Shown here: positions 1 through 43,530 of the stretch, in pieces
Position numbering within the stretch: position 1 is the stretch's first letter
How the letters are laid out: every line of letters starts with the position of its first letter
Position numbers and translations under genes: made by a program
The notes under the pieces: model-generated
Database searches by the model: none
What the model saw: only the letters and a program-made list of their open reading frames with translations
Told to the model about the DNA's origin: nothing
Source: a virus
Taxonomy: Duplodnaviria > Heunggongvirae > Uroviricota > Caudoviricetes
IMG/VR virus record: IMGVR_UViG_2734482773_000003
Span: 1 to 43,530 of that record
Length of the DNA stretch: 43,530 nucleotides
Reading direction: 5' to 3' (one strand)

Positions 1-216
1 TTATTGGGTATCCCCTTTAGCAAAGTTGACCTTGTCTTCCCATGACTTGATTTCTGACTCACGCCAGCGCTTCGGATTTCCGGGGATGGTTGGTTTCGGG
101 AATGGGCATGAAAAGCTGGATGGCATACGTGCGGGAGTGCTCCAGAAATAGAGCGTGCTGCGCGATATTTTGTAGCGCGCAAGGATTTCGCTTGTAACCA
201 GGATGCTGTCATTCAT
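1..216 (-). CDS. AlpA-like phage HTH regulator / excisionase-like protein (71 aa)
   Basis: ORF 1..306(-); internal ATG at 216 with GGAG about 7 nt upstream; MNDSILVTSEILARYKISRSTLYFW...KRWRESEIKSWEDK shows the HTH followed by RWxESEI pattern of AlpA/Xis-type regulators; the upstream extension to 306 runs into the IS end hairpin and is unlikely to be coding. Confidence 0.5.
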   Translation of the reverse strand: MNDSILVTSEILARYKISRSTLYFWSTPARMPSSFSCPFPKPTIPGNPKRWRESEIKSWEDKVNFAKGDTQ

Positions 217-219
217 CTG

Positions 220-1520
220 TGATCTCCAGAAAAAGAGCGCCCGGCGCGGGGCCGGGCAAAATGGGGGATAACTGAGCAGTGCTTTCGCACCCAATAGCCA
301 GCTCATAACTGGCTATCAGTTGCTTGACATCCTCCCCGTCCTAAAGGAAGGGGATTCCTACAGCTAGACGGCGATGCCCCGCCGCGAGAATGTTCTTTGC
401 GGCGTTCACGTCGCGGTCATGAGTGGTTCCGCACTCACAACAAGTCCATTCTCTTATTCGCAGGCCTGCTCTACCTTTCGGACTGTTGGCGGAGATAGCC
501 CCGCAACACGAACAAGCTTGGGTGGAATAACTTTCGTTGACCACTTCAAACACCACTGACCGCGCAATCGCTTTATATTCCAGTTGTGTTTTGAGCATGA
601 ACCAGCCAGCGTCCAAAATGCTTTTTGCCATTTTGGTTTTAACCAGTTTCTTACTGCTCGCGTCGCCTACGAATATTGCCGCATGGCTGTTAACCAGCGC
701 CGTGCTGTACTTGTGCAGGGCATCTTTGCGGCGGTTCTTAATTTTGGCGTGTATGGCGCGTACACGGGCTTTTTTGTTTGCACGCTGTGCCTTTCCTAAT
801 GCAGGCTCCAGATCTCGATAGAATCTACCGGCAATCAGCGGATCACCTTCTGACGGGGTGGCGTAGTCTTTCAGCCCTAAATCGATACCCACGGCGGAAG
901 TGGCCGTTGATGGGACAGTTTCGACCTCTACGCAAACATTGAAGTACCAGCGTCCACGGCTGTCTTCTGAAAAGCTTCCAGCACGGAATTTAAATCCTCC
1001 CAAGCCGTAGCTATCCCAGACATTAAAAATCCTGCCAGCGAACCGCACCGCGCCATTTTTCCAGACAGCGCTGCCTATTTTAAACGGCACCCAACCCAAC
1101 GAACGGCGAGATCCCCCACTGACTCGCCAGCGTAAGCGAGAGCGTTTAAATTGCTTCCGTGCCTTGCCGTGAATTGCTGCGATTTCCTGTACGGTATGGC
1201 TGGGGATGGTATACCCGCGCTCTTTTCGCTCTTTAAGGAGCGGTTTCTGAACATCAAACGCCGATAGCCATTGCGGTTTTTGCGCGCCAAAAAAGCCAGC
1301 GTTGCCGTATGCTGCGCTGGTTATCTCGTTTGCCAGATTAAAGATCTGATTGACCTCAAAGGCCATCTGCCGCAAAACGGCTGCGTGCTTGTCTTTAATT
1401 CGGACAGATAGTGTTTTGATCTGAATGTTCATGGTCGTATGTACATATAATGTGTTGATGTTCAGTTGATCGTCGTTATTTGGCGGGATGTCACCCGCCA
1501 CACGGCGATGCGCTGATGCT
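220..1520 (-). mobile_element. TnpB-only IS200/IS605-like insertion sequence (ends approximate)
   Basis: tnpB with no tnpA; subterminal hairpins on both sides of the gene: ggcgggatgtcacccgcc at 1482..1499 (left-end side) and cccggc-gcggg-gccggg at 240..256 (right-end side); exact termini not determined. Confidence 0.45.
341..1432 (-). CDS. tnpB: IS200/IS605-family TnpB (RuvC-like RNA-guided endonuclease), 363 aa
   Basis: ORF 341..1501(-); ATG at 1432 (MNIQIKTLSVRIKDKHA... typical TnpB N-terminus); C-terminal zinc finger CSCCG...CCECG and RuvC-III-like DRDVNAAKNI motif. Confidence 0.8.
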   Translation of the reverse strand: MNIQIKTLSVRIKDKHAAVLRQMAFEVNQIFNLANEITSAAYGNAGFFGAQKPQWLSAFDVQKPLLKERKERGYTIPSHTVQEIAAIHGKARKQFKRSRLRWRVSGGSRRSLGWVPFKIGSAVWKNGAVRFAGRIFNVWDSYGLGGFKFRAGSFSEDSRGRWYFNVCVEVETVPSTATSAVGIDLGLKDYATPSEGDPLIAGRFYRDLEPALGKAQRANKKARVRAIHAKIKNRRKDALHKYSTALVNSHAAIFVGDASSKKLVKTKMAKSILDAGWFMLKTQLEYKAIARSVVFEVVNESYSTQACSCCGAISANSPKGRAGLRIREWTCCECGTTHDRDVNAAKNILAAGHRRLAVGIPFL

Positions 1521-7675: not shown

Positions 7676-8353
7676 TTATGGGATGTTTAGTATTTTGGCA
7701 TCAACCACAACGCCGATGATTTTGCAGTTTCCATTAATTTCTAGCATTGGATATGCGGGGTTAAGGGGCTTTAGGAAGCGTCTGCCGGCATCGATTACAA
7801 GCTTCTTAAAGGTCGCTTCGTTATCGCCTTCTAGCTTCGCGACAACCAGCTTTCCGTTGCGCGGCTCGACTTCAGGATCAACAAGTATCGCTGCTCCCTC
7901 AGGTATGCTCAGTCCAGCCGGGGAGGTCATAGAATCCCCTTTAACGTCCAGCCAGAATGAATCTTCTGAGCAGTCAACAGTCGTGTCATACCAGCGATCT
8001 ATCGCTCTTCGGTGATAAGGTTCTACAGCTTCCATCCATTGCCCCGCGCTTACCCAGCTGATTACAGGATAACTTCCTTTTGTCTCGTTCAGTCCTCGAA
8101 ATGCAACGTTCGAAGGTTCTTCACTGGCGTGTAAAACATCCATCCAGCCAAAAGGCAGATCAAGCGCAGTTTCAATTTTGCGAGCCATCTTATCGCCGAT
8201 ATTGCGATGAGGGTTTGGTCCCAGTAGCTGGCTAAGCGCAGCCGGACTTGTCTCGATGAGCTCGGCAAACTGCGCTTTGGTCATTCCAGACTCGTGCTGA
8301 CGCTTCTCGTACAGCGCTTCCAGGTTGGCTTTTCTGATTTCTTTATTTTCCAT
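7676..8353 (-). CDS. cI: CI-like prophage repressor (HTH N-terminus plus S24 LexA-like autopeptidase C-terminus)
   Basis: ORF 7676..8470(-); ATG at 8353; N-terminal HTH (MTKAQFAELIETSPAALSQLL); C-terminal S24 motifs GDSM (Ser) and KLVV...K (Lys); divergent from the cro-like gene. Confidence 0.85.
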   Translation of the reverse strand: MENKEIRKANLEALYEKRQHESGMTKAQFAELIETSPAALSQLLGPNPHRNIGDKMARKIETALDLPFGWMDVLHASEEPSNVAFRGLNETKGSYPVISWVSAGQWMEAVEPYHRRAIDRWYDTTVDCSEDSFWLDVKGDSMTSPAGLSIPEGAAILVDPEVEPRNGKLVVAKLEGDNEATFKKLVIDAGRRFLKPLNPAYPMLEINGNCKIIGVVVDAKILNIP

Positions 8354-8371
8354 ACCTGCATTGTTACTGCT

Positions 8372-8439
8372 TTTAGCAAAATGATAAATGTGCAAATTGC
8401 TAAATGATGCTTGCGTAGTATTTAGCATAACGCTAAACT
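8372..8439. promoter_or_regulatory. OR-type operators with candidate pR promoter
   Basis: tttagc-aaaat-gataaa 8372..8388 and tttagc-ataac-gctaaa 8421..8437, plus a weaker site near 8388..8404; candidate rightward promoter TTGCGT (8411..8416) - 17 nt - TAAACT (8434..8439) overlapping the last operator. Confidence 0.55.
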
Positions 8440-8469
8440 CCAAATCAAACGACTCACCCGGAGACACCA

Positions 8470-8703
8470 ATGAGCACTGAACTACACCGCTGGCGCAAGG
8501 CCGCCACTACCGACGAATGGGCGCAGCTCGCAAAGTTGGCTAACACGACGCCAGGTTACCTGGACCAGATCGCCTACGGAAATCGCCGGGCATCTCCAGA
8601 AATGGCATCTGCTATCGAGAAAGGCACGAAGAATTTTCACCGCCAGGCTCCGGTCCTAAAAGAAAGCCTGGTATTCGCATCGCCGCGTGATACTGCGGCC
8701 TAA
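8470..8703 (+). CDS. cro: Cro-like HTH regulator (YdaS/Cro type)
   Basis: ATG 8470 with GGAG upstream; HTH-like segment EWAQLAKLANTTPGYLDQIAYGNRRASPEMASAIEKGT; first rightward gene divergent from cI. Confidence 0.7.
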   Translation: MSTELHRWRKAATTDEWAQLAKLANTTPGYLDQIAYGNRRASPEMASAIEKGTKNFHRQAPVLKESLVFASPRDTAA

Positions 8704-8720: not shown

Positions 8721-9263
8721 ATGCATTCACTTGCGTATCAACACAATACCGGAATACACCCGGGAGCGATGATAAACCGCGCTCAACCTAAGGCGGCGCC
8801 TGACCACGAAAAGATCCGCGATGCGGTCCGGGCATGGTCTTCGGCGCTGGACAATCAGGACGTCGTTTCGGCACTGATCATCAACGAATACCGGGAGCAG
8901 GGCGGGACCGCCATCAGCTTTCCTGACGACATCAGCCGTGCGCGCCAGAAGCTGTTCCGCTTCCTGGATAACCGTTTCGACTCCGAACAGTACCGCGAGA
9001 ACGTGCGCCAGCTGACACCCGCAATCATGTCCGTATTGCCGCTGGAGTACCGCAACCGCCTGGCGCCGCAGAACGACACGATGTCGCTGATCGCTTCTGC
9101 GATGAAAGAGTGTGCTGAAGCTAAACAGGCCGTGCTTTTGGACGCCCCAGAGCATCAGAAGCTGAAAGAGGTAAGCGAGGGTATAGCTTCGCTGTTCCGC
9201 CTCATGCCGGAGCAGGTAGGCCCACTGATGACGATGGTCACGTCGATGCTGGGGGTTATGTGA
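8721..9263 (+). CDS. YdaT-like regulatory protein (CII-position analogue)
   Basis: ATG 8721 with AAGGGA upstream; LTPAIMSVLPLEYRNRL region resembles Rac-prophage YdaT (from memory); sits immediately after cro. Confidence 0.55.
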   Translation: MHSLAYQHNTGIHPGAMINRAQPKAAPDHEKIRDAVRAWSSALDNQDVVSALIINEYREQGGTAISFPDDISRARQKLFRFLDNRFDSEQYRENVRQLTPAIMSVLPLEYRNRLAPQNDTMSLIASAMKECAEAKQAVLLDAPEHQKLKEVSEGIASLFRLMPEQVGPLMTMVTSMLGVM

Positions 9264-39861: not shown

Positions 39862-41730
39862 ATGGCTACGACACCTACCAATCTTCCTGTTCCAAGTGAA
39901 TCACCGCGCGATCTGAAATTTAACGCCGGAAAAATAGACGAGTTTGTAACCTCAGGAAATCATGTTTATGTTGACAGGTTCGGCGATGAACATCGTACAA
40001 TTGCTGGCATAAATTACGATGCAAATCAGGCAATGCTGAATTATGGCTACATCACGAAGAAGTCTTTTGAAATTGGCGCTACCCTCGACACTCCTAACAC
40101 TGTTCTTCAGTGGGAGAGCAATGGCGAATACTACCGCTGGGATGGGGACTGGTCACAGCCCAAAGTAGTTCCCGCTGGTTCTACGCCTGATAGTACCGGT
40201 GGAATTGGGGAAGGGAAATGGGTTGGAGTAGGAGATGCTTCATTAAGGTCTGATTTGGCTGGTGCCGGTGGTTCAGATATGATCGGGACACCTAATGGAA
40301 CTGTGGAAGAAAGGCTTAATCAACTAAAGGATAAGGATGAAGATTTAGGGAAAAAGATAGTAACAACTATCATTCCATGTCCTACACCAACAATCGATAA
40401 TGGTGTAAAGGCTGTTGTGAAATCATCATCTGATGATGATTTTTATATTATCTCTAAAAGAGCCAATGGTAAGTCTGGCTTTATCGCTTTGCGCGTAACC
40501 AATGACGTATCAGTTTCTGATGCGAGCAACTACGGTGGTGCATCACCATTCCGTCCTGGATCTGTTGAGCGAGTGAGAGATGCGATTTATGCGAAGTTAG
40601 CTCCATCCACTAAATCATCTGGTGTTACTTTATCAACCCTAACTGCATCACAAATCGCAACACTTTATGGATTTACAGCAACCGGAAGTTCTATCAACGC
40701 AGTGACTGCAAGTGGCGATTTTTCGCTTATAAGCCCACAGGTATATAACGTTCCTAATGGCGAATCTGTTGTTTATAAGCTTGAAATGTCGAATAAAGCT
40801 ACAATTCGGCTTGGATGCTCTAATGGTGCTTCTACAACTGTAAATATAAGCATCAGTCGAGATGGAACTAACTGGCTTCTTCAGAAAACAGTTAACACAC
40901 AACTTCCTCCATCAGGTCTTGGTCCGCTACCTCTTGATATTGAAGTGAATGGTCTAAGTGGTGTTTGGTATGTTCGTGTATCAAATGGGCACGCCAACCC
41001 TCTGTATCTTGTCGGTCTGAATATTGGCTATATTGGTTCTGATAAAATATATGACTATGATGCATTCATTGCAACGATAGAGCCTGATTTGAGTACTGGA
41101 CCTTCATATTATTTCGGAGGTAATGGAGCTACAGAATTTGCAGCGAAAGAATTATCTACTGGTAAATTCTTCGGAACATTCCATGGTGGTCATAGTAATT
41201 TTCTTCAAAGATTAAGAACCGAATCAGCTTCTTATAACCTGGATAGCTCCACTGCACCAACTCTCTTGCTTACGAAGAATGCCACTTTACACAGCGCTTC
41301 TCTTATCACGGTGCAGTCATCAACATATAACTATGTGGCGTCAACACAGTTTGGTGATGGTGTGACTATCACTAATTTCGCACTTCAGAAGCAATCCGGA
41401 GAGGCAATTTTATGTGAGCGAATTTATACGCACATGGCAACATCTGCGCGAAACTTCGACTGGATACACCTTCCTGTTCTTCTGAATAAGACGGATGATG
41501 GGTATGTTCAGGTTGGTCAGTGCGGATTTATACAGCAATTCAGATCAGACGATGCGGCTTACGTTAACTGCTACTTTTCGCAAGTCAACGTCTCTGAAAA
41601 CGGCTATGGAGGGGCTTATGTTTCCTTCCAAAATAACTATAACAAGCAGTATTATGGGTCAGTATTTTCTTCTTCAGTAGGGGTTCCTCTTTCTGACGGC
41701 TCCTACACAACATGTAAAGAGTTTTTCTGA
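39862..41730 (+). CDS. tail fibre / tailspike protein with conserved N-terminal anchor and divergent AT-rich C-terminal receptor-binding region
   Basis: 622 aa; composition drops to AT-rich after roughly the first 150 codons; Ser/Thr/Asn/Gly/Tyr-rich C-terminus typical of beta-structured receptor-binding/depolymerase domains. Confidence 0.65.
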   Translation: MATTPTNLPVPSESPRDLKFNAGKIDEFVTSGNHVYVDRFGDEHRTIAGINYDANQAMLNYGYITKKSFEIGATLDTPNTVLQWESNGEYYRWDGDWSQPKVVPAGSTPDSTGGIGEGKWVGVGDASLRSDLAGAGGSDMIGTPNGTVEERLNQLKDKDEDLGKKIVTTIIPCPTPTIDNGVKAVVKSSSDDDFYIISKRANGKSGFIALRVTNDVSVSDASNYGGASPFRPGSVERVRDAIYAKLAPSTKSSGVTLSTLTASQIATLYGFTATGSSINAVTASGDFSLISPQVYNVPNGESVVYKLEMSNKATIRLGCSNGASTTVNISISRDGTNWLLQKTVNTQLPPSGLGPLPLDIEVNGLSGVWYVRVSNGHANPLYLVGLNIGYIGSDKIYDYDAFIATIEPDLSTGPSYYFGGNGATEFAAKELSTGKFFGTFHGGHSNFLQRLRTESASYNLDSSTAPTLLLTKNATLHSASLITVQSSTYNYVASTQFGDGVTITNFALQKQSGEAILCERIYTHMATSARNFDWIHLPVLLNKTDDGYVQVGQCGFIQQFRSDDAAYVNCYFSQVNVSENGYGGAYVSFQNNYNKQYYGSVFSSSVGVPLSDGSYTTCKEFF

Positions 41731-41798: not shown

Positions 41799-42908
41799 CT
41801 AAATTGCTGGTTTTCTTGTCTTGATTAAATTACCTGCCATATCAACCAAATATTTTCTTAATGCCAAGATAGCAAGGTTTATAATAATAGGGATAACAAT
41901 GCCTGCAACGATATAAACAGGCCAGTACAAAGGATCTGAAAAGTGCGACAAAGCCTTAGCTTTCCCTATTTCATACATTCCCATCCAGCCGAAAATAATA
42001 TCCAACAAAATGAATGCAAGTAAGTGGAAAGACATAATGCATTTGCTTTCCCTCCCTATGTAGAGAATGGTTTTCGACTTTATTGCTTTAGATAGCATGC
42101 AGGATAAGGAAAATACTATATATGAGCAAAGTAATATTTGAACATAAGTCAGCAAAAATCCATGCTTGTAGTTACTCCATGAAACCCCTATATCTCCGCT
42201 TAGCCCCAGTCGGCGCATAGTAATAACCAATAAAAACGCCAAGCACATCCAAAGCAAAGAAGGTGATTTAAATATCAAATCCTTAAATGTTTTTCCTATC
42301 AACATAAAGGCAAGCGCAAAGAGGATTTGAGAACCATAGTTATTTAATATATTCCATTCAGATTTGTATGCCACAGCAAGATAATCGATGGAAACCCAAC
42401 CACATGCTATGATAGTCAGAACGGATAAAATACTTTTCGCGGTTCTATTTAAATGTTTTGTTATGCGCAGATAGCAATATAGAAGGATGGATGCCATTGC
42501 ATATGCGAAAAGAAACCATGATACTAAAAATAAAAAACTAATATGCATATTAGTATTCAAAAAGTAAATGGCATAATCATAGATAGAGCTCTGAGCTTTA
42601 TATAGCCCTGAAATTCCAGTGCTCTCTTGTATAAGATATGAAACTAGCAATAAAAACATATCCACAATTACTATATAAAAAAAGAACTTTCTGATTATTA
42701 TACTAAGGAATTGTAGAGGGTTTTTATTCTCGTTAAATACAATTCCTCCAATCATGAAAAATAGAGGCATATGATACATATACGGCGTCATAACATTAAA
42801 TATGTTATTTGAGTAGTGCCCTATAACGACAACAATAATTCCAAGAGCCTTTGCATAATCAATAGCAGCTCTCCTGTATTGCTGATCATCATTGCTAATC
42901 GTATTCAT
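41799..42908 (-). CDS. acyltransferase-3 family integral membrane protein (putative O-antigen/polysaccharide O-acetyltransferase; lysogenic-conversion candidate)
   Basis: 369 aa with about 10 predicted TM helices; N-terminal RAAIDYAKALGIIVVVIGHY matches the acyltransferase-3 start motif; strongly AT-rich; AGGGTG upstream of ATG 42908; convergent with the tail fibre. Confidence 0.7.
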   Translation of the reverse strand: MNTISNDDQQYRRAAIDYAKALGIIVVVIGHYSNNIFNVMTPYMYHMPLFFMIGGIVFNENKNPLQFLSIIIRKFFFYIVIVDMFLLLVSYLIQESTGISGLYKAQSSIYDYAIYFLNTNMHISFLFLVSWFLFAYAMASILLYCYLRITKHLNRTAKSILSVLTIIACGWVSIDYLAVAYKSEWNILNNYGSQILFALAFMLIGKTFKDLIFKSPSLLWMCLAFLLVITMRRLGLSGDIGVSWSNYKHGFLLTYVQILLCSYIVFSLSCMLSKAIKSKTILYIGRESKCIMSFHLLAFILLDIIFGWMGMYEIGKAKALSHFSDPLYWPVYIVAGIVIPIIINLAILALRKYLVDMAGNLIKTRKPAI

Positions 42909-43183
42909 TCTTCACCCTGCGTAGTTCATTTCACGAATCATTCTGTAGGGATACACGTCGCATCACTACTGACGGCACCGTCACATGAAGCATGATAACT
43001 GCGTAATCAGATCGTGATTAACGCGTTATTGTCAAAAGGATGCGACAGCATACCCGAAGGTAGTTTTTCGATCGAGTAAATCGTTAGTAAGAACAGACGT
43101 CCATAGCAAAAATAAACGCTAAAACATCAACAGCCTATAAATTTCAATCCCTCTAAAACTTGATCAAAGTTAGCTCTTGTGTG

Positions 43184-43203
43184 TACTGTATATATATACA
43201 GTT
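43184..43203 (+). promoter_or_regulatory. LexA (SOS) box overlapping a candidate promoter
   Basis: tactgtatatatatacagtt contains CTGT-(AT)4-ACAG, the LexA-box consensus; candidate -35 TTGATC at 43161..43166 with -10 inside the box. Confidence 0.6.
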
Positions 43204-43224
43204 TTTGTTGTCCTGAGGATGATT

Positions 43225-43530
43225 ATGCAGACAGGGGATAAACGATACAAGCTCGAGCATTTATGTGGGGTTAGCCACTCTTCCTGTCTGGTTGAAACTT
43301 CAGGTGGATACGCGCTTTTTCAGCCTGAACTTGTGCCCACCAACGGAACACGCGTGCTGGTGCATGCGTTCGGACAACTACAGTTCGCGGTCGTTATGGG
43401 CGGTGCGCTCATCACCGAAGACGGTGAAAGCATAGAGGGAGATGCTTTAGATGAAGTCGATGTCATGGGAGTTGTGACCTTTTTTATCAGTGGCGCTGCG
43501 GCGTTCACAGACGACAATCCGGTGATGTGA
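43225..43530 (+). CDS. SOS-regulated small protein of unknown function (101 aa)
   Basis: ORF 43177..43530; ATG 43225 with GAGGA 5 nt upstream, about 22 nt downstream of the LexA box; stop at 43528..43530. Confidence 0.45.
   Translation: MQTGDKRYKLEHLCGVSHSSCLVETSGGYALFQPELVPTNGTRVLVHAFGQLQFAVVMGGALITEDGESIEGDALDEVDVMGVVTFFISGAAAFTDDNPVM

What the first reader, a model, noticed from the sequence alone, without database searches (positions are those of the whole stretch)
43141..43530. Consensus LexA box controlling a small unknown gene at the right edge of the window
CTGTATATATATACAG is a near-perfect SOS box, positioned over the -10 region of a candidate promoter about 22 nt upstream of a 101-aa ORF. 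The product is not a recognisable UmuD, DinI or SulA. Its location beside the prophage end raises the possibility of an SOS-controlled antirepressor-type or prophage-induction factor, or an unrelated host SOS gene.
Basis: partly seen in the sequence, partly recalled or inferred. Interest (0 to 1): 0.5.

Follow-up and report, generated by a model that had tools for sequence, protein, structure and literature searches.

The report
SOS-controlled prophage UmuD'-like/UmuC polymerase operon
The LexA box is real, but the small gene behind it is a stripped-down, non-cleavable relative of UmuD'/P1 HumD. It is the first gene of a prophage-carried error-prone DNA polymerase (UmuC) operon, not an antirepressor or a host gene.

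Summary
**Observation: confirmed.**
- TACTGTATATATATACAGTT (43184-43203) matches 19 of 20 positions of the E. coli LexA consensus. It never arises in shuffles.
- It is conserved, together with an invariant TTGATC 17-18 nt upstream, in eight otherwise diverged relatives.
- It precedes a 101-aa ORF (43225-43530) that is under purifying selection.

**Interpretation: only partly right.**
- The ORF is a divergent UmuD'/HumD homologue. hhalign against UmuD/HumD gives 97% probability and E = 5e-11, and UmuD' and LexA C-terminal domains are the best structural matches.
- It starts 6 residues after the UmuD' N-terminus.
- It lacks the 12-residue loop that carries the Ser60 nucleophile, and it has Ala where UmuD has Lys97.
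- Its stop codon overlaps, by one base at the window's last nucleotide, the start of a full-length UmuC gene. This is seen in every contig read that encodes the identical protein.
- The pair lies inside the prophage, about 230 bp from attR. Enterobacter phage CobraSix carries the same pair.
- Related phages carry a UmuC 91-93% identical to this one, paired with a canonical cleavable UmuD.

**Most likely function:** a LexA-repressed Pol V-like polymerase whose accessory subunit is made ready-processed, so the RecA*-dependent cleavage step is skipped. The function itself is untested.

**Verdict:** a new variant of a known kind, of moderate interest.

The parts
43160..43165 (+). -35-like hexamer TTGATC
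   Evidence: Invariant in all 8 aligned upstream regions although the flanks are unconserved. It lies 17-18 nt upstream of TACTGT. Canonical phage umuDC promoters have the same layout (TTGATT-17-TACTGT in ENT39118, TTGCGC-17-TACTGT in Oslo). Not called by the generic scan.
43184..43203 (+). LexA (SOS) box TACTGTATATATATACAGTT. The left half, TACTGT (43184-43189), is the probable -10 hexamer.
   Evidence: 19 of 20 matches to the consensus, and 0 of 100 shuffles give a match with up to 3 mismatches. It is the only such site in the window. TACTGT and ACAG are invariant across 8 relatives, and a CTGT-N8-ACAG lies upstream of nearly all family members.
43215..43219 (+). Shine-Dalgarno GAGGA
   Evidence: Lies 5 nt before ATG 43225. 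A purine-rich SD is conserved in relatives.
43225..43530 (+). 101-aa UmuD'/HumD-like gene. It is pre-truncated, lacks the Ser60 loop, and has Ala where UmuD has Lys97.
43530..43530 (+). First base of the umuC start codon (TGATG overlap). The 422-aa gene runs off the window.
   Evidence: In E. coli A14 (99.8% identical DNA) the Y-family polymerase CDS starts at the last base of the ORF's stop. The same holds in all 6 places shown for contigs that encode the identical 101-aa protein. That protein scores 860 bits against NCBIfam UmuC NF002955 (cutoff 431) and has IMS, IMS_C and DUF4113 domains.

Best explanation
The region is the regulatory region and first gene of a prophage-borne, LexA-repressed umuD'-like/umuC operon.

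**Proposed mechanism**
1. In the lysogen, host LexA binds the near-consensus box that overlaps the -10 element (TTGATC, 18 nt, TACTGT) and keeps the operon off.
2. DNA damage activates RecA*, LexA cleaves itself, and the two translationally coupled genes are expressed.
3. The 101-aa product has the UmuD'/LexA-C-terminal beta fold and is made already 'processed'. It has no N-terminal arm, no Cys-Gly cleavage site, no Ser60 loop and no Lys97, so it can neither need nor perform RecA*-assisted self-cleavage.
4. It most likely dimerises and binds the co-encoded UmuC to form a Pol V-like translesion polymerase directly. This would skip the cleavage checkpoint that delays Pol V in E. coli, as P1 HumD does for host UmuC.
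5. The probable benefit is lesion bypass on damaged phage or lysogen DNA at the time the prophage, which has an S24-type repressor, is itself induced.

**Shown:** the box, its conservation, the homology and fold, the missing catalytic elements, the coupling to UmuC, the location inside the prophage, and purifying selection.

**Inferred:** LexA binding, complex formation with UmuC, and the polymerase-activating function.
For: **LexA box and promoter:**. Canonical phage umuDC operons use the same promoter/box layout.

**Homology to UmuD'/HumD**
- PHROG 3469.
- Family members starting MGFPSPA hit UmuD in the PDB from Gly25 onward, at E = 2.8e-11 and 2e-3.
- hhalign gives 97.1%, E = 5e-11.
- The C-terminal DDxPV[IM] tail is shared with P1 HumD.

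**Loss of self-cleavage apparatus:**

**Operon with genuine UmuC**
- Seen in A14, CobraSix and the contigs encoding the identical protein.
- The polymerase is 91-93% identical to Oslo and PHB10 UmuC, which pair with canonical UmuD.

**Real gene:** dN/dS 0.09-0.30.

**Inside the prophage:**

**Precedent**
- The P1 record says humD 'functionally complements E. coli UmuD'' and annotates a LexA site next to it.
- PMC7092418 calls HumD an 'already activated' shorter UmuD.
Against: - No experiment exists on any member of this short family.
- The protein scores below every curated UmuD or HumD model.
- It lacks the GFPSPA start of the UmuD' N-terminal arm. PMC13335488 describes that arm as contacting UmuC.
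- The 12-residue deletion removes surface that may matter for RecA or UmuC contacts.
- Close relatives occur without any UmuC (L006, L007, L010, mEp390, phiES15). The protein must therefore also have a role independent of a co-encoded polymerase, either with host UmuC or something else.
- umuC itself is outside the window, so its presence in the window's own genome is inferred from identical-protein contigs.
Confidence: 0.65

Rival explanations
1. The short protein is a regulator or decoy rather than an activator. As a catalytically dead UmuD' mimic it would bind UmuC, host UmuD/UmuD' or RecA* filaments to restrain or time mutagenic synthesis, or to modulate RecA*-dependent cleavage of LexA or CI. 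This would be analogous to UmuD-UmuD' heterodimers or DinI.
For: - It has lost the catalytic loop and part of the N-terminal arm.
- Many relatives are stand-alone genes without UmuC and often sit next to a DinI-like gene.
- The UmuC partner is nearly identical to ones served by canonical UmuD, so the swap might change regulation rather than preserve function.
Against: - The one-base TGATG coupling to umuC copies the arrangement of umuD-type genes directly before umuC.
- The closest characterised relative, HumD, substitutes positively for UmuD'.
- Nothing else in the operon could supply a UmuD' function to the phage polymerase in a host lacking umuD.
Confidence: 0.2
2. The ORF is a functionless relic of umuD, and the prophage UmuC relies on host UmuD'.
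For: - Large deletions relative to UmuD and loss of both catalytic residues.
- No curated family match.
- A frameshifted version exists in Raoultella.
Against: - dN/dS is 0.09-0.30 across six loci, with dS up to saturation.
- Length is conserved at 101 aa, and the motif ITEDGE is invariant.
- The SD, the start and the stop/start overlap are conserved.
- The exact protein is present in 203 blocks of the assembly collection.
- The AF2 fold is confident.
Confidence: 0.07
3. One reading: an SOS-controlled antirepressor or prophage-induction factor (Tum/Ant-like), or an unrelated host SOS gene.
For: It is a LexA-controlled small gene at a prophage end, as tum is in phage 186 (resemblance from memory only).
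Against: - Sequence and fold identify it as UmuD'/HumD-like.
- It is coupled to UmuC.
- The prophage repressor carries its own S24 cleavage domain.
- The gene lies inside attL-attR and in a virion genome, so it is not a host gene.
Confidence: 0.03

Closest known systems
Bacteriophage P1 HumD (and N15 gp26)
   Same: - Phage-encoded and LexA-regulated.
- Made without the cleavable N-terminal arm, so it resembles UmuD' from the start.
- Shares the C-terminal F/E-x-DDxPV[IM] tail that the canonical phage UmuD proteins aligned here lack.
   Different: - HumD is 129 aa, keeps the GFPSPA N-terminus, the (G)DS(H/M) serine loop and the Lys, and matches its own NCBIfam model. The window protein does not.
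- In the P1 region examined, humD is followed by phd/doc, not a umuC. That P1 HumD works with host UmuC is from memory. The window gene is fused into an operon with its own UmuC.
E. coli UmuD'2C (DNA polymerase V) and the umuDC operon
   Same: - A LexA box overlaps the promoter.
- The small-subunit gene overlaps umuC by one base.
- The small subunit has the S24 beta fold.
- The polymerase is a bona fide UmuC.
   Different: - There is no N-terminal 24-30 residues, no Cys24-Gly25 site, no Ser60 loop and no Lys97.
- So the RecA*-mediated UmuD to UmuD' activation step cannot exist.
- The operon is carried by a temperate phage.
Canonical phage-borne umuDC (Salmonella phage Oslo, Escherichia phage PHB10, Cronobacter phage ENT39118)
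   Same: - Same genomic slot: tail fibre, umuD, umuC, attP/integrase.
- Same promoter/LexA-box design.
- UmuC is 75-93% identical.
   Different: Those phages encode full-length, cleavable UmuD (139-145 aa with C/G site, GDSM and K). Here the partner has been replaced by the short loop-deleted type.
Plasmid/ICE Pol V orthologues (MucAB, RumAB) and Bacillus SPbeta YolD-UvrX
   Same: They are mobile-element-borne, SOS-linked pairs of a small accessory gene and a UmuC-family polymerase (PMC8460599, PMC13335488).
   Different: - MucA and RumA still require RecA-mediated cleavage.
- YolD is only a 'potential UmuD-like protein'. Its role is unresolved and no sequence relationship to it was tested here.

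Membership tests
UmuD / UmuD' (Pol V accessory subunit; peptidase S24, NCBIfam NF007621) | LexA/UmuD-type S24 beta-barrel fold | tested here: met
UmuD / UmuD' (Pol V accessory subunit; peptidase S24, NCBIfam NF007621) | Ser60-Lys97 catalytic dyad | tested here: not met
   A 12-residue gap covers GDSMxDxGIxDG, and Ala55 aligns with Lys97.
UmuD / UmuD' (Pol V accessory subunit; peptidase S24, NCBIfam NF007621) | N-terminal arm with Cys24-Gly25 cleavage site | tested here: not met
   The protein starts at the position aligned with UmuD residue 31, and there is no upstream in-frame extension with a C/G site.
UmuD / UmuD' (Pol V accessory subunit; peptidase S24, NCBIfam NF007621) | Score above curated cut-offs (PF00717, NF007621) | tested here: not met
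   No Pfam or NCBIfam hit at E <= 1.
UmuD / UmuD' (Pol V accessory subunit; peptidase S24, NCBIfam NF007621) | Gene immediately upstream of, and overlapping, umuC | tested here: met
   One-base TGATG overlap with a 422-aa UmuC in A14, CobraSix and the identical-protein contigs.
UmuD / UmuD' (Pol V accessory subunit; peptidase S24, NCBIfam NF007621) | Binds UmuC as a dimer and enables translesion synthesis | not testable with these tools
   Needs biochemistry or genetics. No multimer modelling is available.
HumD family (NCBIfam NF051876) | Synthesised without a cleavable arm (UmuD'-like from the start) | tested here: met
   More distant family members start exactly at MGFPSPA.
HumD family (NCBIfam NF051876) | Score above the NF051876 cut-off (120 bits) | tested here: not met
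   The window ORF has no hit. Relatives P0059 and the L024 protein score only 34-36 bits over the first 21-32 residues.
HumD family (NCBIfam NF051876) | Retains the serine loop and Lys of the S24 core | tested here: not met
   HumD keeps A-DSHH...IKR, whereas the window protein has the deletion and Ala.
E. coli-type LexA-regulated (SOS) promoter | CTGT-N8-ACAG palindrome close to the TACTG(TA)5CAGTA consensus | tested here: met
   19 of 20 matches, 0 of 100 shuffles, conserved in relatives.
E. coli-type LexA-regulated (SOS) promoter | Box overlaps core promoter elements | tested here: inconclusive
   TTGATC, 18 nt, TACTGT is conserved, but the generic promoter scan reported nothing and no TSS data exist.
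E. coli-type LexA-regulated (SOS) promoter | LexA binding and damage inducibility | not testable with these tools
   Needs EMSA or a reporter assay.
LexA-controlled phage antirepressor (Tum/Ant type) | Homology to antirepressor families, and a prophage repressor that lacks self-cleavage | tested here: not met
   No antirepressor family hit in Pfam, PHROGs or NCBIfam. The prophage repressor at 7676-8470 has HTH plus Peptidase_S24.

The most novel reading that the evidence does not exclude
Temperate enterobacterial phages have evolved a minimal UmuD' that has discarded the whole self-cleavage machinery (arm, Ser loop, Lys) yet still serves a canonical UmuC. Lysogens or induced phage would then get a Pol V that is armed as soon as LexA is cleaved, with no RecA*-cleavage timer. 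Alternatively, the loop-deleted protein is a new kind of UmuC/RecA* modulator. Either way, the natural partner swap on a UmuC 91-93% identical to canonical ones would define which parts of UmuD' are really needed for Pol V.
Probability: 0.4. Interest if true: 0.6.

Novelty: new variant of a known kind. Interest (0 to 1): 0.4.

Why it matters
In E. coli, Pol V activity is held back by several layers, one of which is the slow RecA*-dependent cleavage of UmuD. A phage-borne operon that pairs an ordinary UmuC with an accessory subunit that cannot be, and need not be, cleaved would remove that layer.

Three consequences would follow:
- A natural minimal UmuD' for structure-function work.
- A possible source of faster or higher damage-induced mutagenesis in lysogens. 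The identical protein is found in many E. coli assemblies, and relatives are found in Enterobacter, Cronobacter and Klebsiella (pro)phages.
- A phage self-supplied route to reactivating damaged phage genomes after induction.

It also shows that the PHROG/RefSeq label 'UmuD-like protein' hides a distinct, uncharacterised subfamily that no curated UmuD or HumD model captures.

Tried and rejected
- **Direct searches against PDB sequences.** Neither the single sequence nor the 18-sequence profile found UmuD. The link needed intermediate family members, profile-profile comparison and structure.
- **An earlier by-eye alignment.** I first placed Ala30 opposite Ser60. MAFFT and hhalign instead show a 11-12-residue deletion of the whole serine loop. 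Either way no nucleophile remains.
- **Promoter and terminator scan.** The generic scan of 42850-43530 found nothing, so the promoter was inferred from conservation instead.
- **att core.** An exact-repeat search for a core of 10 nt or more found none. Aligning both junctions with an empty yciA-yciB site solved it, giving the core TCTTCCTG.
- **Assumption that the window equals the A14 prophage.** This is wrong. A14 matches only the two ends, and its prophage is about 24.6 kb.
- **Literature.** Nothing is held on CobraSix, no paper describes the short variant, and McLenigan et al. 1999 is not held.
- **Rfam.** A scan of 42700-43530 found nothing.
- **First coordinates.** The start I first used for the ORF (43226) was off by one.

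Full report
**1. Observation**

The sequence at 43141-43530 is as described. CTGTATATATATACAG occupies 43186-43201 and is the only CTGT-N8-ACAG in the 43.5-kb window. That loose pattern is not significant on its own: 0.52 copies are expected, and 40 of 100 shuffles contain one. The 20-mer TACTGTATATATATACAGTT (43184-43203) matches the E. coli LexA consensus TACTG(TA)5CAGTA at 19 of 20 positions. No shuffle of the window gave a match with up to 3 mismatches. The next-best CTG-N10-CAG site has 7 mismatches.

The ORF starts at ATG 43225, with the SD GAGGA at 43215-43219, and ends with TGA at 43528-43530, giving 101 aa. RefSeq annotates the same start in E. coli A14.

**2. The box is conserved with a promoter**

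I aligned the upstream regions of eight relatives whose flanks have diverged beyond recognition. Only four elements are conserved: TTGATC (window 43160-43165), a 17-18 nt spacer, TACTGT...ACAG, and the SD/ATG. So the left LexA half-site very probably serves as the -10 hexamer.

The canonical phage umuDC operons use the same design:
- ENT39118: TTGATT, 17 nt, TACTGTATAAATACACAGTA.
- Oslo: TTGCGC, 17 nt, TACTGTATATAAAAACAGTA.

The generic sigma-70 scan did not call a promoter, so the promoter assignment is an inference from conservation. No Rfam family matches the region.

**3. What the ORF is**

Pfam and NCBIfam give no hit. PHROG 3469 'UmuD-like protein' matches end to end at E = 2.3e-33.

The family is small:
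- The word-indexed search found 61 clusters, all Enterobacteriaceae, all named 'hypothetical' or unnamed.
- About 216 cluster representatives were found among 1.84 billion proteins, nearly all 100-110 aa long.

Neither the single sequence nor the family profile found UmuD among PDB sequences. More distant members, however, start MGFPSPAxDYxExR:
- An Erwinia member hits E. coli UmuD (8gmt, 1umu) at E = 2.8e-11, aligned from Gly25, the first residue of processed UmuD'.
- P0059 hits UmuD at E = 2e-3.

A profile-profile comparison of the short family with Oslo UmuD, ENT39118 UmuD and P1 HumD gives 97.1% probability and E = 5e-11 over 106 columns.

An AlphaFold2 model (pLDDT 82.8, core at or above 90, last 10 residues disordered) supports this:
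- Foldseek's best match is UmuD' (1umu, TM 0.63), followed by LexA, lambda CI and 186 CI C-terminal domains.

**4. How it differs from UmuD**

The alignments show five differences:
- The protein begins at the position of UmuD residue 31. The cleavable arm and the Cys24-Gly25 site are absent, and even the GFPSPA start of UmuD' is missing.
- An 11-12-residue deletion removes GDSMxDxGIxDG, the loop that carries the Ser60 nucleophile.
- Ala55, invariant in the family, aligns with Lys97.
- A second short deletion follows Lys97.
- The C-terminus carries a tail, AFTDDNPVM, that resembles P1 HumD (EFDDCPVI) and is absent from the canonical phage UmuD proteins (Oslo, ENT39118).

The identity of Ser60/Lys97 as the dyad and Cys24/Gly25 as the cleavage site is established knowledge. 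It is consistent with the invariant S60 and K97 and with the K97A structure.

The gene is not a relic. Pairwise dN/dS is 0.09-0.30 with dS up to saturation, the length is fixed at 101 aa, and ITEDGE is invariant.

**5.

The window ends on the stop codon. In E. coli A14, which is 99.8% identical over 42900-43530, a 422-aa Y-family polymerase CDS starts on the last base of that stop, a TGATG overlap. The same is true in Enterobacter phage CobraSix, gp29 and gp30. It is also true in all six places shown for contigs that encode exactly the window's 101-aa protein; 24 contigs were read, and the index lists the protein in 203 blocks.

The polymerase has IMS, IMS_C and DUF4113 domains. It scores 860.5 bits, full length, against NCBIfam NF002955 'DNA polymerase V subunit UmuC', whose cutoff is 431.

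**6. Inside or outside the prophage**

In A14 the element lies between yciA and yciB. I aligned both junctions with an empty yciA-yciB site from NCTC86. This shows integration into the 3' end of yciB at the core TCTTCCTG. The right junction is about 230 bp beyond the umuC stop, and the integrase is at the left end.

CobraSix, a sequenced virion genome, has the order tail spike ... UmuD-like, UmuC, integrase. The identical gene pair is also found with the same tail-spike and acyltransferase neighbours at a second chromosomal site, next to TolA-like and SRAP genes. The pair is therefore phage cargo next to attP, not a host gene.

The window is not simply the A14 prophage. Only the two ends match.

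**7. Evolutionary context**

Only 27 of 50,697 phage records encode a UmuC homologue. Among the enterobacterial ones, the partner in front of UmuC divides as follows:

| Phage | Partner | UmuC identity to the window-type UmuC |
|---|---|---|
| PHB10 | full-length, cleavable UmuD | 92.7% |
| Oslo | full-length, cleavable UmuD | 90.5% |
| ST846-phi9.2 | full-length, cleavable UmuD | 83.6% |
| ENT39118 | full-length, cleavable UmuD | 74.9% |
| IME1369_01 | full-length, cleavable UmuD | 59% |
| CobraSix | short partner | 98.6% |

In Oslo and ENT39118, whose contexts were examined, the pair sits in the same slot between tail fibre and integrase. So the accessory gene has been exchanged in front of an essentially unchanged polymerase and promoter.

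The short family also exists as a stand-alone, LexA-boxed gene at the same prophage end:
- L006, L007 and L010 have the box next to the gene.
- mEp390, phiES15 and many Klebsiella and Enterobacter prophages often have an extra 79-aa ORF between box and gene, and a DinI-like gene nearby.

These are documented. The mEp390 depositors noted similarity to HumD. One database protein, P0081, keeps a UmuD-like arm and C/G site on a loop-deleted core and is a possible intermediate.

**8. Mechanism**

The best-supported reading is a LexA-repressed Pol V-like operon whose accessory subunit is synthesised in a form equivalent to UmuD' or beyond. Once LexA is cleaved, a (short protein)2-UmuC complex can form without the RecA*-dependent UmuD to UmuD' step.

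Precedent and background:
- The P1 record states that HumD 'functionally complements E. coli UmuD'' and annotates a LexA site 20 nt upstream.
- PMC7092418 describes HumD as an already activated, shorter UmuD and as the exception to the cleavage rule.
- Active Pol V is UmuD'2-UmuC-RecA-ATP (PMC13335488), so RecA would probably still be needed.

The prophage repressor (7676-8470, minus strand) is an HTH plus S24 protein. The same RecA* signal therefore induces the phage, and a self-supplied translesion polymerase would help replicate damaged templates. The link to Weigle reactivation is my own inference from memory.

The caveats are real:
- There are no experiments on any member.
- The GFPSPA arm start is missing, and PMC13335488 describes the arm as contacting UmuC.
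- Stand-alone relatives exist.

A decoy or modulator role is therefore kept as a rival at 0.2, a functionless relic at 0.07, and the antirepressor or host-gene reading at 0.03.

**9. Verdict**

The element is a new variant of a known kind, the UmuD'/HumD-UmuC systems. It is currently labelled only by automated annotation as 'UmuD-like' or 'hypothetical', fails every curated UmuD and HumD membership criterion except fold, context and regulation, and is uncharacterised. Interest is moderate, at 0.4.

Noticed in passing
window 341-1501 (-), with 1-306 (-): A 386-aa TnpB / IS605 OrfB-type RNA-guided endonuclease gene (Cas12f1-like_TNB plus OrfB_IS605) sits inside the prophage. It lies next to an AlpA/excisionase-like HTH ORF at the left edge. 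No TnpA was seen, and its omega-RNA was not examined.
   Followed up: partly
window 41799-42908 (-) and 39862-41730 (+): An Acyl_transf_3 acyltransferase gene with very low GC (0.30-0.36, against 0.55 in the tail genes) lies directly after a tail spike with a TSP1/Gp66 N-terminal domain. It is probably an O-antigen-modifying (serotype-converting) moron. It has no PHROG or NCBIfam match.
   Followed up: partly
window 7676-8470 (-) and 8721-9263 (+): A CI-like repressor (HTH_3 plus Peptidase_S24) lies divergent from a gene with a YdaT_toxin domain. This looks like the immunity region of the prophage.
   Followed up: no
L015 3741-3980 and 3980-4300; L028 (phiES15 gp51/gp52); P0143: In many relatives the LexA box lies about 300 nt upstream. 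A conserved 79-aa ORF of unknown function (no Pfam hit) is inserted between the box and the HumD-like gene. The two are fused into one 187-aa protein in P0143, which suggests a functional link.
   Followed up: partly
L015 3388-3654 (-); L027 (mEp390 gp24): A DinI-family gene sits divergently next to the stand-alone HumD-like genes. These prophage ends therefore collect several RecA*/SOS-related small genes.
   Followed up: no
P0081 (141 aa, database protein): This protein keeps a UmuD-like N-terminal arm and a C-G site (…FSDSMQCGFTSPAADY…) on a core that already has the serine-loop deletion. It is a possible evolutionary intermediate between UmuD and the short family.
   Followed up: no
L026 3828-4117 and 4114-5382 (Raoultella ornithinolytica): A more divergent short partner, split over two reading frames by a frameshift or assembly error, precedes an overlapping 422-aa UmuC. 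The LexA box lies 207 nt upstream of the matched segment, which would put it about 18 nt before the first frame's ATG (3828).
   Followed up: partly
L001 / L030 (E. coli A14) versus window: The A14 prophage is only about 24.6 kb and shares just the two ends with the 43.5-kb window (1-1214 at 100%, 42900-43530 at 99.8%). It has a truncated anti-CBASS Acb1 gene where the window differs, so the prophage is mosaic or deleted in A14.
   Followed up: partly
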